Positions 10,463 to 37,320 are shown, counted from the first letter of the stretch. The stretch is DNA of 64,000 nt from a virus (IMGVR_UViG_3300042691_044682:1-64000), one strand, 5' to 3'. Notes: generated from the letters alone by a model not told the origin. Translations and numbers: made by a program.

Positions 10463-10744
10463 TCAGCCCTCCGTCCGCGGGAACCACGGCGAGACCGGGT
10501 TCGCGATCGCGCGCACCAGGCGGATGGTGGCGTCCTCGTAGGCGGTGCGCGCCATGGCAAGGTCGCGGGCCTGCTGCGGGAAGAGATGCCCCACGGCGCG
10601 CAGGGCGGCTTCGACGCGCCCGTGCAGCTCCGCCGCCTTCGCCTCGAAGGCCTTGGCCTCGTTCATGAGTCGGCGGCAGAGCGCGTCGATCTCGGCCTGG
10701 GTCAGATCCCGGTAGCCGGTGATCTTGGTGTGCTGGTCCTTCAC
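10463..10744 (-). CDS. acb2: Acb2/Vs.4-like cyclic-nucleotide sponge (anti-CBASS)
   Basis: QHTKITGYRDLTQAEID...MN..K at the N-terminus and LAMART..E.A...LVRAIANP.S at the C-terminus match the Acb2 pattern; 93 aa. Confidence 0.8.
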   Translation of the reverse strand: MKDQHTKITGYRDLTQAEIDALCRRLMNEAKAFEAKAAELHGRVEAALRAVGHLFPQQARDLAMARTAYEDATIRLVRAIANPVSPWFPRTEG

Positions 10745-12142: not shown

Positions 12143-12432
12143 GTTCAGGATCCTCCTCGCTCGTTTCCTCTCCCGGCCCCGGCGCCTCGCCGAGGTCGAA
12201 GGTGATGGTCACCAGGACGCGGCGCCGCCAGCGCATGACGCCCGCCTGGCCGCCGCCGGCGACGACGTCGCCAAGGGTGCGCCAGCCGAGCGCCGGGCCG
12301 CACCAGACGTCGATGCCGGCGCCCAGGCCCTCGAGGTCGCCGCGGATGGTGCCCACGGGGCGCTCGACGTCCTCGCTGGGCGGCTGGAGCGGGGCGAACA
12401 GGTCATCGATCACTGCTCACCCCGCTCCCTGC

Positions 12433-12804
12433 CGGCGTTGCGGTGCCTTGCCCTGCGAAGCCCTGCCTTGCCTGCGATGCCTTGCGATGCCCAGCCTCGC
12501 CTCGCCTTGCCTTGCCTGCCCTGCCCGGCCACGCCAGACCCAGCCCCGCCAGGCCATGCCTGCCGTGCCCCGCCATGCCCGGCCACGCCGTGCGCCGCGG
12601 TGCCTCGCCTTGCCTGCGCTGCCATGCCCCGCCAAGCCCCGCCATGACTAGCCATGCCTGCGGTGCCCTGCCCCGCCACGCCAGACCCAGCGACGCCTTG
12701 CCTTGCCTGCCCTGCCCGGCCACGCCAGACCGTGCCGTGCCATGCCTTGCCTGCCATGCGGTGGCACGCCTCGCCTAGCCTCGCCTAGCCCGGCGCCGCC
12801 TGCG
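12433..12804 (-). ncRNA. GGY-NN pentamer array A (8 units; putative guide RNAs)
   Basis: 68 in-phase pentamers (mostly GGC-NN; GGT/CGC/GTC variants) in units of 9,8,9,8,10,8,8,8, each preceded by GGCA/CGCA. Confidence 0.85.
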
Positions 12805-13237
12805 TCGGACCTTCCACCAGCGCCCCCATTGCCGCCTCGATGTGCGGCGCCAGGGACGCGTAGCGGCGGTACCGCTCGAGGACGCGATCGACATCGAGCC
12901 GCATCCGCCGCAGGAGCACCTCCATGTCATCCTCGTCCTGCAGGACGGCGGTGATGGTCCGGTAGGTGTTCCTGGCGACGGTCACGTAGGCGCGGACGGG
13001 CACCAACGCATCGTCCGGCCGCGGCAGCATCGTCACCGCGGCGCGGATCACCCGCCCGGCCTCGATCAGCAGCAGCTTCGCCTGCGCGTCGTCCGCATCC
13101 CAGGTGAAGGCCGCGTGGAGCGCCGTGTTGGAGCTCCGCGCGAAGTCGATCACAGCCTCCTTGGTGAGGACGCCGCCGTTCATCTGGCGGACGACCTCGA
13201 GCTCGGCGAGCTGCGACTGGGTCAGCATCCTGCTCAC
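12785..13237 (-). CDS. Accessory protein coupled to the RAMP gene
   Basis: GTG overlaps the RAMP stop (GTGA); LTKEAVIDFAR...LHAAFTWD motif; 3' end overlaps array A. Confidence 0.8.
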   Translation of the reverse strand: MSRMLTQSQLAELEVVRQMNGGVLTKEAVIDFARSSNTALHAAFTWDADDAQAKLLLIEAGRVIRAAVTMLPRPDDALVPVRAYVTVARNTYRTITAVLQDEDDMEVLLRRMRLDVDRVLERYRRYASLAPHIEAAMGALVEGPTQAAPG

Positions 13238-13926
13238 GGCCGCTCCTGGATCCGGAAGCTGCCCCAGCCGACGCCGGCGCTGTTCTTGCTGTCCGCCCGG
13301 CCCTCGCCGATGCCGACCTGCTCGCCCACCCGCGACATCAGGTTCGCGATGTCGGTGGCGGTGAACTGGTCGGCGTCGAAGCGGACCGTCACGTCCATCT
13401 CCCACTCGCGCCACATGGGCCGGGTGCGGATGTCGATGACCCCCGTCGCGTTGCGGGTGGGCAGGTCGCTGCGGATGGGCTCGGGGCCGAGGATGCGCAC
13501 CAGCGGCGTGCCGTCGATCCGGTCGAAGCCGTGCGGCTCCACGAAGACCGACATCTTCGCCAGCGTCATCTTGAAGTTCACGAGCCGGCAGGCGGAGATC
13601 ATGCCGCTGCGGAAGGCCCCGGCATGGACGCCGTCCCAGCCATCGGTGGAGATGTGCCGGGCCTCGTTGAAGGCGGCGTCGAAGTCCTTCGCGTCGCGCT
13701 TCTTCTTGCCGCGGGCGGTGGACCCGGCGGCCTGCTTCTCCATCATCGCCTGCATGGCCTTCGCGGGGAACCGCGAGATCACCAGCGGCGCGGTGCCGAT
13801 GATGTGGAAGGTCACCATGCGCATGTTGGGCGCGGTGATGGTGATCGGCTGGGCGCCGTCGCCCAGCTCGTCGCCGCGCCCCTTGGCCGATCGCTTGGCC
13901 TTGGCGCCGGCAGTCATCCCATCCAT
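13234..13926 (-). CDS. Stand-alone Cas7/RAMP-like protein (Vipr-like)
   Basis: 230 aa; beta1 VTFHIIGTAPL, VHAGAFRSGM helix and C-terminal Gly-rich loop VGIGEGR...GVGWGSF; AAGGA RBS before ATG 13926. Confidence 0.8.
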   Translation of the reverse strand: MDGMTAGAKAKRSAKGRGDELGDGAQPITITAPNMRMVTFHIIGTAPLVISRFPAKAMQAMMEKQAAGSTARGKKKRDAKDFDAAFNEARHISTDGWDGVHAGAFRSGMISACRLVNFKMTLAKMSVFVEPHGFDRIDGTPLVRILGPEPIRSDLPTRNATGVIDIRTRPMWREWEMDVTVRFDADQFTATDIANLMSRVGEQVGIGEGRADSKNSAGVGWGSFRIQERP

Positions 13927-13980
13927 GATGTCGATCCTTCGTTCAGAAGATCCCCGGGCGGCCAATCCGCCTGGGGTGGT

Positions 13981-14014
13981 ACGGGGAGCGGGTTCCAGGC
14001 CCGCTCCCCGTTTT
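13981..14014. terminator. 12-bp perfect hairpin at the 3' end of array B
   Basis: ACGGGGAGCGGG-TTCCAGG-CCCGCTCCCCGT, followed by T's on the + strand. Confidence 0.65.
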
Positions 14015-14019
14015 CGTGC

Positions 14020-14319
14020 CGGCCTCGACCGGCCTGGCCTTGCCTCGCCGAGCCGAGCGAAGCCCGACCGCGCCTAGCCACGCCTGCCGTGCCCGGCCGT
14101 GCCTTGCCAGTCCACGCCCTGCCTGCCGTGCCCGGCCGCGCCAGTCCTCGCCCTTCCAGTCCTAGCCAAGCCTGCCGCGCCATGCCGAGCCCCGCCTGTC
14201 CGTGACTAGCCATGCCTGCGGTGCCTCGCCACGCCCTGCCACGCCTAACCAGGCCTCTACACGCCTCGCCTGCCGTGCCACGCCCGGCCTAGCCCCGCGA
14301 AACGCAGCCAGGCCCCGAC
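14020..14319 (-). ncRNA. GGY-NN pentamer array B (6 units; putative guide RNAs)
   Basis: 56 in-phase pentamers in units of 9,10,8,9,7,13 separated by GGCA/CGCA. Confidence 0.85.
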
Positions 14320-14360
14320 ACGGCTCAATGAAAGACATTTCAATGTGATCCTGTCCAGCG

Positions 14361-14386
14361 GAAAAATACATCTAGATGTGTTTTTC
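14361..14386. promoter_or_regulatory. AT-rich palindrome upstream of array B
   Basis: GAAAAATACATCTAGATGTGTTTTTC; 26 bp with one mismatched pair. Confidence 0.55.
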
Positions 14387-15233
14387 ACGCAGGGTCGATC
14401 GGATCCTCCGGCGGCGCCGGCACAGGCGGACGCTCCGTCCCGCCCTCCATGAACTCCACCAAGCGCTGGTACGCCTCCAGCTCCGCCGTCGGCATCTTCG
14501 CGAAGTCCAGCACCAGCTTCCGCTCCGTCTGGGTCACCTCGTGCTGGTGCTCGATCGGCGCCCCATCGACCCCCGACAGCTCCACCCGCTTCGGCCGATC
14601 CTCCATCCCCAGCGCCTTGCGCCGCTGCACCTGGATGCTCTCGGCCAGCCGCGTCAGCGCCGTGATCTTCGACGCGATCGCGTCCTTCCCATCCGCCAGC
14701 ACCTCCAGCACCTCGAGGTCGGGGTCCTTGTGGTCGGTCATCACGAACAGGAGCTTCGTCACGTGCCGGTGCAGCTGGTCGAACGTCTCGGACAGCTGGT
14801 CGATCCGCCGGAGGTCGCGCAGCACCCCCACCTTCATCACCTCGGCCACCCGGTCGATCGTCAGCTCCCGCGCCTCGGCCACCAGCGAGGTGGGCTGATT
14901 ATTTTCCTGATCTTCTGGGTCCGAGGGGTCCGAAAAATCGGACGAATGGTCCGAGCGCTCCTTGGGAGCCAGCTTTTCCCTGCGGTCCGAGGGGTCCGAG
15001 GGCTCGGACTTTGGGCGGCTGGCCTCGTCGTGTTCGAGGACGGCGCGGGCGACGGCGGCTGACTGTGCGGCGGCGAGGGCGGCGGGGGAACGGGCCCAGC
15101 CTTCGCTCACGGCGCGCTTGCGGATGGCCTTTTCGGAGACGTTGAACTTGGCGGCGAGAGCGAGGTTGGAGACTGTCCCCATCTCCCACTCGGCCCGGAG
15201 GGCGAGCCATTCCTCGGGGCTGAGGGCGGGCAT
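14385..15233 (-). CDS. terS: Terminase small subunit
   Basis: N-terminal HTH (LAAKFNVSEKAIRKRAVSEGW) and ELSGVDGAPIE motif. Confidence 0.8.
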   Translation of the reverse strand: MPALSPEEWLALRAEWEMGTVSNLALAAKFNVSEKAIRKRAVSEGWARSPAALAAAQSAAVARAVLEHDEASRPKSEPSDPSDRREKLAPKERSDHSSDFSDPSDPEDQENNQPTSLVAEARELTIDRVAEVMKVGVLRDLRRIDQLSETFDQLHRHVTKLLFVMTDHKDPDLEVLEVLADGKDAIASKITALTRLAESIQVQRRKALGMEDRPKRVELSGVDGAPIEHQHEVTQTERKLVLDFAKMPTAELEAYQRLVEFMEGGTERPPVPAPPEDPIDPA

Positions 15234-26719: not shown

Positions 26720-26731
26720 GCCACAAAGCGA

Positions 26732-26825
26732 GCCCCCGGCGCCGAAACGCCGGGGGCCGCTGGAGCCTTGCAGTGCCGAGCCCAGCCAAGCCATGCGCTA
26801 CCCCGCCTGGCCTGCCGCACCGGCC
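26732..26825 (-). ncRNA. Orphan single-unit GGY-NN RNA (unit C)
   Basis: GGCA plus 10 pentamers (26812-26763), 10-bp hairpin at 26732-26757, promoter immediately upstream. Confidence 0.7.
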
Positions 26826-26828
26826 ACG

Positions 26829-26857
26829 AGAATCACACAGAACTAGGTTCCTCTCAA
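26829..26857 (-). promoter_or_regulatory. Sigma70-like promoter for the orphan unit
   Basis: TTGAGA-N17-GATTCT. Confidence 0.5.
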
Positions 26858-36664: not shown

Positions 36665-37222
36665 ATGCCCGACTGCTTCGTGTGCCCGCTTGGCGGGAAC
36701 GCGAAAGCCATGTCCTTCGCCGAGTTCTTCCGGCGCTTCCCCCACCGCCTCGTCCCCGAGGCATGGGAGGCGCTCGCAATCGCCGCCATGACCGACCAGA
36801 TCATCGAGTTCCGCGACGATCGGCACGACCCCATGAAGGCCGTGTCGACCAACTTCGTCACCACGAACCCGACGGTGCCCGACGGCGCGCCGTACTGGTC
36901 GATATCCGCCAGGACGCTGAAGCTCGCCACCGCGCGCACGCTGCTTCACCAGCCGCAAGCGCGCGTCGTGACGCCGACGAAGCTCCTCACCGACGATCGT
37001 GGTCCGAAGACCACCTATCGCCTCGGCCTGCGTGCCTCGGTGACCGTGGACTCAGACGTCCTCGTCGACGCGCATTCGCCCGACGACGCGATCGCGCTCT
37101 TCGAAGCGTCCCCCGATCGCTACCACGGCGAAGCCATGGACGTGCTCGAGAACTCCTGGGACTGGCACGAGCTGACGCCCATGCAATGGATCGTCGTCTC
37201 CGCCATCCCCACGGACGACTGA
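36665..37222 (+). CDS. Hypothetical protein
   Basis: GAGGA RBS. Confidence 0.6.
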   Translation: MPDCFVCPLGGNAKAMSFAEFFRRFPHRLVPEAWEALAIAAMTDQIIEFRDDRHDPMKAVSTNFVTTNPTVPDGAPYWSISARTLKLATARTLLHQPQARVVTPTKLLTDDRGPKTTYRLGLRASVTVDSDVLVDAHSPDDAIALFEASPDRYHGEAMDVLENSWDWHELTPMQWIVVSAIPTDD

Positions 37223-37320
37223 CATGCCGCATGCCGCCGGCGCCCCGTGCGCCGGCGTGCAAGCCGGCCCGCCCGCTGCCGGGCCTGCCCGTCGTGGCAC
37301 TAGCAGCGCAGGAGACAGCC

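What the first reader, a model, noticed from the sequence alone, without database searches (positions are those of the whole stretch)
12433..14386. Lone Cas7/RAMP-like gene plus partner, flanked by GGY-NN arrays: a non-CRISPR RNA-guided system (VIPR-type)
Seen on the minus strand, in order: AT-rich palindrome, array B (14319-14020), 12-bp hairpin, 230-aa RAMP-like gene with a Gly-rich C-terminal loop, coupled 150-aa gene, array A (12804-12433). The arrays hold 124 pentamers in strict phase, each a fixed triplet (GGC, some GGT/CGC/GGA/GTC) plus a variable NN. (G/C)GCA tetramers shift the phase and cut them into 14 units of 7-13 pentamers. There is no cas1/2/3/6 and no repeat-spacer array. Known: Cas7 RAMPs polymerise along guide RNA with a fixed footprint. 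Inference: one protomer binds each pentamer, the triplet is the protein anchor, NN carries the targeting information, and the tetramer marks unit boundaries or processing sites. This fits my recollection of the recently reported phage VIPR systems (not verified here).
Basis: partly seen in the sequence, partly recalled or inferred. Interest (0 to 1): 0.97.

Follow-up and report, generated by a model that had tools for sequence, protein, structure and literature searches.

The report
Phage VIPR RNA-guided silencing locus

Summary
On the minus strand, two arrays (14314-14021 and 12800-12434) hold about 121 GGY-NN pentamers and 14 (G/C)GCA-type tetramers. Each tetramer shifts the phase by -1, giving 14 units of 8-13 tiles. 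The arrays flank a 230-aa gene and an overlapping 150-aa gene, far beyond chance.

All of this matches the VIPR systems published in 2026, including their "staggered arrays with 1-nt overlap".

Under the published 1-nt skip rule, guide B6 reads V-Y-A-R-F-S-S-D/E-N-Q-R-D/E. It matches the start of large serine recombinase genes at 24 of 24 read bases, one of them in a Roseococcus genome, with the skipped base at the wobble position. No convincing target was found for the other 13 guides.

Verdict: a new member of a known kind. No cas1 and no CRISPR array were found. The first-stage scan had already noted the B6 decoding on this same window.

The parts
14340..14386 (-). AT-rich intergenic stretch with an imperfect palindrome, directly after the terS-like stop. 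It may hold the terS terminator, the array B promoter, or both (inferred).
   Evidence: Sequence. The fold is weak (-10.6 kcal/mol, z -1.05). No sigma-70 consensus promoter or intrinsic terminator was found.
14021..14314 (-). vrRNA array B: six staggered units, B1-B6, of 8-13 tiles. B6 (14084-14021) is the serine-recombinase guide.
   Evidence: Tiling. Chance controls. B6 targets.
13981..14011 (-). 12-bp GC-rich hairpin between array B and vipr, with no T-run. It may end or stabilise the 3' end of the array transcript (inferred).
   Evidence: strand folding gave -27.6 kcal/mol, z -3.1, with 0 of 200 shuffles as good. The only Rfam match is a sub-threshold sX11 hit (27.8 bits against a cut-off of 70).
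13234..13926 (-). vipr: a 230-aa minimal RAMP (Cas7/Csm3-like) protein with the Gly-rich loop GIGEGRADSKNSAGVGWG.
12785..13237 (-). vap-like accessory gene, 150 aa, with a GTG start overlapping the vipr stop. Function unknown; the fold is weakly winged-helix-like.
   Evidence: P0121 is 150 aa and 100% identical. phrog_15946 E 9e-8. A related ORF lies beside vipr on the same strand (downstream in 37) in 38 of 81 loci. The model has pLDDT 77; PDB matches reach only E about 0.1 (MukE, RepE, PadR/MarR-type winged helix). BFVD gives an uncharacterised phage protein at E 4e-6.
12434..12800 (-). vrRNA array A: eight staggered units, A1-A8, of 8-11 tiles. A1 overlaps the last five codons of vap.
   Evidence: Tiling. 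Chance controls. Repeat family D2.
26728..26857 (-). Solo vrRNA-like cassette 12 kb away: TTGAGA-N17-GATTCT, then GGCA, 10 pentamers and an 11-bp GC hairpin.
   Evidence: Sequence. Hairpin -35.9 kcal/mol, z -3.0. A GGYNN run here is one of only three outside the arrays. Solo vrRNAs are described in bioRxiv 10.64898/2026.10.15.759431.

Best explanation
This is a phage-encoded VIPR (Viral Interference Programmable Repeat) system of the staggered-array variant.

Proposed mechanism, inferred by homology with SUSP1 VIPR. The two arrays are transcribed on the minus strand and yield about 14 vrRNAs of 8-13 pentamers. Vipr protomers coat each vrRNA, one per pentamer. They hold GGY through the thumb and the Gly-rich loop and expose the NN pairs. 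The filament binds double-stranded DNA that reads NN-x-NN-x (the 1-nt skip rule) and represses transcription.

Shown here from sequence. Guide B6 is written against codon positions 1 and 2 of the catalytic N-terminal motif V-Y-A-R-F-S-S-D/E-N-Q-R-D/E of large serine recombinases.

Inferred consequence. The phage probably silences the integrase or excision recombinase of competing mobile elements in its host, likely from the family of a Roseococcus MAG (presumably Acetobacteraceae). Skipping the wobble base would make the guide indifferent to synonymous change. The 150-aa partner is the vap accessory protein, possibly DNA-binding.
For: Protein:
- The only PDB sequence match is SUSP1 Vipr. The alignment pairs SUSP1 R138 (thumb), D177 and R179 (G-loop) with R169, E208 and R210, which are invariant in this family.

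Arrays:
- GGYNN runs lie beside the gene on its own strand in 74 of 81 related loci and almost never on the other strand.
- Over 152 distinct units, GGY columns carry 0-1.2 bits of entropy and NN columns 1.8-2.0 bits.
- 302 of 317 non-pentamer tiles are GGCA tetramers. This matches the paper's staggered arrays with 1-nt overlap.

B6 target:
- Exact 22/22 matches in 3 IMG/VR contigs and 24/24 in 7 genome contigs.
- All four sites inspected (three IMG/VR contigs, the Roseococcus contig) are the in-frame start of a serine recombinase gene, with the skip base at wobble.
- The Roseococcus ORF carries the Resolvase, Recombinase and Zn_ribbon_recom domains.
- With up to 2 mismatches there are 29 sites in 16 of 151 genomes of that family, against 0 for the reversed control pattern.
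- Five other guides with 18-20 read bases gave 0 exact viral hits and a 16-base guide gave 6. So about 0.002 chance hits are expected for 22 bases.

Consistency with the literature:
- B6 has the sense of the coding strand, so it can pair with template DNA but not with the mRNA. This fits DNA targeting.
- No guide scores above shuffled controls on the phage's own contig, as the paper reports for other systems.
- The context is a virus record, between terS-like and terL genes.
- Targeting of a satellite's excision recombinase by SUSP1 VIPR is published.
Against: - Nothing here shows that the arrays are transcribed, processed or bound by the protein.
- Similarity to SUSP1 Vipr is weak and covers mainly the C-terminal 45 residues. 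SUSP1 W178, which stacks on G2, aligns with an invariant Gly.
- There is no 40-nt conserved 3' tail as in the characterised type II vrRNAs. The paper reports sRNA-seq confirmation for the ribozyme-interspersed and single-vrRNA architectures, not for staggered arrays.
- Only 1 of 14 guides has a firm target. B1 is suggestive only: 13/16, uncorrected P 0.007.
- The perfectly matched Roseococcus recombinase sits among ordinary host genes, not in an obvious prophage.
- The B6 motif is so widespread that the true natural target cannot be named.
- No consensus promoter was found.
Confidence: 0.9

Rival explanations
1. A degenerate or orphan fragment of a type III or type VII CRISPR-Cas system: a stray Csm3/Cas7 gene whose flanking repeats are unrelated simple sequence.
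For: The best structural matches are Csm3, type VII Cas7 and gRAMP domains.
Against: No Cas1 is on the contig and no repeat-spacer array is in the window. The pentamer arrays travel with the gene in 74 of 81 homologous loci, on the same strand. The only sequence-level PDB match is Vipr, not any Cas7. The family has thousands of members, many in viral contigs.
Confidence: 0.02
2. The arrays are protein-coding low-complexity sequence (Gly/Ala/Arg-rich ORFs such as 12410-12757) or plain microsatellite DNA with no RNA role.
For: Open frames of 70-115 aa run through both arrays. The equivalent array in mycobacteriophage Donkeykong is annotated as CDS gp48.
Against: A 5-nt period with -1 shifts every 8-13 tiles cannot keep a reading frame's meaning. 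Three positions are fixed and two are at maximal entropy across loci, which is not a codon pattern. Guide B6 decodes exactly onto a foreign gene under the 1-nt skip rule. High GC alone produces long spurious ORFs here.
Confidence: 0.02
3. It is a VIPR-type ribonucleoprotein, but in this clade it acts differently from SUSP1. It might target RNA, or the vap partner might recruit a nuclease or other effector, rather than acting by simple transcriptional roadblock.
For: The clade is only distantly related to SUSP1 Vipr (E 2.6e-4). It lacks the 3' tail, and its vap has no confident fold assignment. The paper describes types whose vaps are nucleases or helicases.
Against: B6 has the sense of the mRNA, so it cannot pair with that mRNA. 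The vap model shows no nuclease or helicase match, only weak winged-helix-like ones. Residues that hold GGY in SUSP1 are largely kept.
Confidence: 0.07

Closest known systems
VIPR systems (Vipr + vap + vrRNA), bioRxiv 10.64898/2026.04.26.720920; the staggered-array architecture of its fig. S18
   Same: A minimal RAMP protein and a two-gene operon. GGY/NN pentamer arrays lie upstream and downstream on the same strand. NN is hypervariable. The context is a phage. Neighbouring units overlap by 1 nt. A target obeys the 1-nt skip rule with the wobble base skipped. No self-targeting was found.
   Different: The type (I-VII) could not be assigned because the paper's tree and supplementary data were not available. 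The host lineage is high-GC (71% GC contig). The paper reports no sRNA-seq confirmation for staggered arrays.
SUSP1 and P. fulva type II VIPR (structures in bioRxiv 10.64898/2026.04.26.720927; PDB 36pp)
   Same: Weak but specific sequence similarity. The thumb Arg and the G-loop acidic and Arg residues are conserved. There is one array upstream and one downstream. A recombinase gene is a target, as for SUSP1 vrRNA4 on the F5 satellite recombinase (10.64898/2026.10.15.759431).
   Different: There is no roughly 40-nt conserved 3' tail or pseudoknot. Units abut through a conserved GGCAN-(G/C)GCA end. SUSP1 W178 is Gly here. The vap is unrelated by sequence to anything named.
Csm3/Cas7 backbone subunits of type III and type VII CRISPR-Cas
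   Same: The RRM core, thumb and Gly-rich loop fold, and presumably polymerisation along a guide RNA with a fixed footprint.
   Different: There are no other cas genes, no CRISPR array and no adaptation module. The period is 5 nt rather than 6 nt. The guide information is non-contiguous.

Membership tests
VIPR | Sequence relationship to an established Vipr protein | tested here: met
   The only PDB sequence hit is SUSP1 Vipr 36pp_D, E 0.011 for the single sequence and 2.6e-4 for the profile of 27 homologues. It covers the thumb-to-G-loop region. The match is weak, so this rests on being the sole hit together with the fold.
VIPR | Tandem GGY/NN (YNNGG) pentanucleotide repeats flanking vipr on its strand, 9-16 per vrRNA | tested here: met
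   14 units of 8-13 tiles. Runs occur far above chance. 74 of 81 homologous loci carry runs beside the gene on the same strand.
VIPR | GGY conserved and NN hypervariable across related loci | tested here: met
   Over 152 distinct units, GGY columns carry 0-1.2 bits and NN columns 1.8-2.0 bits. Almost no guide is shared between loci.
VIPR | Minimal locus with a vap accessory gene; no cas genes and no CRISPR array | tested here: met
   The partner ORF is translationally coupled, and a related ORF lies beside vipr (downstream in 37) in 38 of 81 loci. There is no Cas1 and no repeat-spacer array. Only Cas1 was searched as a family.
VIPR | Targets obey the 1-nt skip rule, usually in coding sequence with the skip base at wobble, and there is no self-targeting | tested here: met
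   B6 matches 24/24 read bases at the start of serine recombinase genes, with the skip base at wobble. No self hits exceed the shuffled controls. The other 13 guides have no firm target.
VIPR | Conserved structured 3' tail after the repeat tract (type II vrRNAs) | tested here: not met
   Units abut directly. Only a short conserved end, GGCAN-(G/C)GCA, is present. This fits the paper's separate staggered-array architecture, so it argues against type II, not against VIPR.
VIPR | vrRNAs are expressed, co-purify with Vipr, and the RNP binds and silences DNA | not testable with these tools
   This needs sRNA-seq, pull-down and reporter assays.
VIPR | Assignment to one of types I-VII by Vipr phylogeny and vap family | not tested
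   The paper's tree, seed sequences and supplementary tables are not held. The vap fold is inconclusive.
CRISPR-Cas type III/VII | Cas7-family protein encoded with other cas genes (cas10/csm, cas6, cas1-cas2) and a repeat-spacer array | tested here: not met
   There is no Cas1 on the 92-kb contig and no interspaced repeats of 22 nt or more in the window other than the pentamer arrays and a coding repeat.

The most novel reading that the evidence does not exclude
In this very large, uncharacterised Vipr clade, vrRNAs carry no tail. The conserved GGCAN-(G/C)GCA tetramer junction would itself be the ruler or cleavage signal that cuts a continuous pentamer tract into guides. Phages of the clade would also carry 'universal' guides such as B6, written against invariant catalytic codons so as to silence whole enzyme families (serine integrases) of rival elements rather than one rival.
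Probability: 0.3. Interest if true: 0.55.

Novelty: new member of a known kind. Interest (0 to 1): 0.38.

Why it matters
VIPR was described only in 2026, and experiments so far cover mostly E. coli and Pseudomonas type II systems. This locus is a clean natural example of the staggered-array form, for which the paper reports no sRNA-seq confirmation. It comes from a high-GC phage whose Vipr family returned 4744 homologues here. One guide decodes without ambiguity onto the catalytic motif of serine recombinases. This extends two published ideas to a distant clade: that VIPR reads codon positions 1-2, and that it disarms rivals' recombinases. It also offers a ready-made guide-target pair for experiments. 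In addition, arrays of this kind appear to be annotated as protein genes in well-studied mycobacteriophages.

Tried and rejected
Guide searches that found nothing convincing:
- Exact 1-nt-skip scans of IMG/VR for guides A1, A3, A5, B2 and B4 gave 0 hits.
- B2 in metagenomes gave 0 hits.
- A5 in metagenomes gave 2 hits in unrelated, out-of-phase contexts, which is chance level.
- A5 with up to 2 mismatches in 101 genomes of the Roseococcus MAG's family gave 1 hit, also chance level.
- B1 in IMG/VR gave 6 hits, none in a recombinase and most with in-frame stops.

Tests of where the guides converge:
- I tested whether all guides converge on serine recombinases, using 18 genes. Only B6 is significant. 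B1 is suggestive: 13/16 in frame at GGG-LCYGYRVV, uncorrected P 0.007. B4 is not significant (P 0.21).
- No guide hits the phage's own contig, the Roseococcus contig other than B6, or the 81 other VIPR loci above shuffled controls.

Annotation searches:
- Pfam gave nothing for either protein; NCBIfam gave nothing for Vipr and only a spurious sub-cutoff hit for vap.
- Rfam gave only sub-threshold hits.
- No promoter or terminator consensus was found.
- The vap fold search against PDB gave only weak winged-helix-like rows.

- 'Relatives' cannot be drawn for a virus record.

Full report
**What is there**

On the minus strand the order is as follows:
- a terS-like gene (14385-15233, phrog_1206);
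- an AT-rich stretch with an imperfect palindrome;
- array B;
- a GC hairpin;
- a 230-aa ORF (13234-13926);
- a 150-aa ORF whose GTG start overlaps the upstream stop (12785-13237);
- array A;
- further small ORFs, then the large terminase (8142-9851, phrog_38).

Tiling the arrays gives eight units in A (12800-12434) and six in B (14314-14021). Each unit has 8-13 tiles. Twelve units end in (G/C)GCA and the last unit of each array in CGCC or GGCC; each is followed directly by GGC, which shifts the phase by -1. About 83% of pentamers are exact GGY-NN, and the rest differ at one base.

This is far beyond chance. Of the 17 runs of four or more GGYNN in the whole 92-kb contig, 14 lie in these arrays, against 1.6 expected. 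Shuffles of the arrays themselves give 0.2 pentamers in such runs, against 43 and 35 observed. The hairpin after array B has a 12-bp stem (-27.6 kcal/mol, z -3.1).

**The protein**

Pfam and NCBIfam give nothing for it. PHROGs places it in phrog_4652, of unknown function. A model built on 27 homologues has pLDDT 81.

By sequence, the only match among all solved structures is 'SUSP1 Vipr protein' (36pp_D). E is 0.011 for the single sequence and 2.6e-4 for the family profile. That alignment puts SUSP1 R138, D177 and R179 opposite R169, E208 and R210, which are invariant in this family. The structure paper shows these SUSP1 residues holding the GGY bases. SUSP1 W178 aligns with an invariant Gly, which is a difference.

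**Relatives**

The family is large. There are 4744 proteins at E of 1e-3 or better and 539 confirmed places in IMG/VR.

Of 81 fetched loci, 74 have runs of four or more GGYNN next to the gene on its own strand. The opposite strand has almost none.

Across these loci 302 of 317 non-pentamer tiles are tetramers, with consensus GGCA preceded by GGCAN. Units are mostly 9-10 tiles long. Over 152 distinct units, the GGY columns carry 0-1.2 bits of entropy and the NN columns 1.8-2.0 bits. Guides are almost never shared between loci.

A relative of the 150-aa partner lies beside the gene on the same strand (downstream in 37) in 38 of 81 loci, by single-sequence tblastn.

**What is known**

VIPR systems were reported in 2026 (bioRxiv 10.64898/2026.04.26.720920). 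Their features are:
- a minimal RAMP protein, Vipr, and an accessory gene, vap;
- vrRNAs of 9-16 YNNGG repeats;
- mostly phage or prophage location;
- DNA recognition in which each NN pairs and one target base is skipped, usually the wobble base;
- transcriptional silencing of rival mobile elements;
- seven types, and several array architectures including 'staggered arrays' whose vrRNAs overlap by 1 nt (fig. S18).

The structure paper shows one protomer per repeat, with GGY sequestered by the thumb and G-loop. A later preprint shows SUSP1 VIPR silencing a satellite's excision recombinase, and describes solo vrRNAs.

The locus here meets every sequence-level criterion. Its -1 tetramer junction is what a 1-nt overlap looks like in DNA. 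It lacks the roughly 40-nt tail of type II vrRNAs, so it is not type II. I could not assign the type because the paper's tree and tables are not held.

**Targets**

I applied the 1-nt skip rule to all 14 guides.

*B6.* It reads GT-TA-GC-CG-TT-TC-TC-GA-AA-CA-CG-GA, that is V-Y-A-R-F/L-S-S-D/E-K/N-H/Q-R-D/E.
- It matches exactly in three IMG/VR contigs (22/22) and seven genome contigs (24/24).
- In the four sites I inspected it falls at the in-frame start of a serine recombinase gene, with the skipped base at wobble.
- One perfect site is in a Roseococcus sp. MAG of 68% GC. The ORF there carries the Resolvase, Recombinase and Zn_ribbon_recom domains.
- With up to two mismatches there are 29 sites in 16 of 151 genomes of that family and none for the reversed control. 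All read [VIL]YAR[YF]SS[DE]NQR[DE].
- Chance is negligible. A 16-base guide gave 6 exact viral hits and five guides with 18-20 read bases gave none.
- B6 has the sense of the coding strand, so it can pair with the template DNA strand but not with the mRNA. This fits DNA targeting.
- The phage contig itself has no Resolvase-domain gene.

*B1.* It scores 13/16 in frame at the GGG-LCYGYRVV motif of the same Roseococcus recombinase (uncorrected P 0.007). This is suggestive only.

*B4 and the rest.* These are not significant. No other guide found a convincing target. No guide hits the phage's own contig.

**The partner protein**

The model has pLDDT 77. It shows helices, a four-strand sheet and a long C-terminal helix. 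PDB matches are weak (E about 0.1) but are mostly winged-helix DNA-binding proteins. BFVD returns an uncharacterised phage protein at E 4e-6. This is compatible with the paper's DNA-binding vaps but is not shown.

**Verdict**

The thing is a new member of a kind published months earlier. Expression, processing at the tetramer and DNA silencing remain inferred by homology.

Noticed in passing
window 26728-26857 (minus strand): A solo vrRNA-like cassette lies 12 kb from vipr: TTGAGA-N17-GATTCT, then GGCA, 10 GGY-NN-type pentamers and an 11-bp GC hairpin (-35.9 kcal/mol, z -3.0).
   Followed up: partly
L131:1526-1871 (Mycobacterium phage Donkeykong NC_051648.1, about 36889-37234): A staggered GGYNN array lies directly upstream of gp49, a 31%-identical Vipr homologue. 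It sits under the annotated CDS gp48 'hypothetical protein'. All 25 mycobacteriophage records hit carry the homologue, so the array is probably annotated as a gene in them too.
   Followed up: partly
L001 (Cyanophage Cy-LDV1 BK059895.1, g34 and downstream): A named cyanophage carries a 63.5%-identical Vipr homologue (g34). Eight GGYNN runs lie at locus 3638-4577, partly under the annotated CDS g33.
   Followed up: partly
window 58988-62521: Nine diverged copies of a 60-nt repeat, spaced at multiples of 60 nt. This is probably a 20-residue repeat inside a large structural gene (tail fibre-like?).
   Followed up: no
window 10463-10744 (minus strand): A 93-aa ORF in the same terS-terL interval matches phrog_29522 and phrog_717, both of unknown function.
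   Followed up: no
window arrays: A2/A3/A6 and A4/B3: Several units share blocks of tiles: GGTCT-GGCGT-GGC(C/G)G-GGCAG in A2, A3 and A6, and GGCAT-GGCTA-GTCA(T/C) in A4 and B3. This suggests that units arise by duplication or recombination between units.
   Followed up: no
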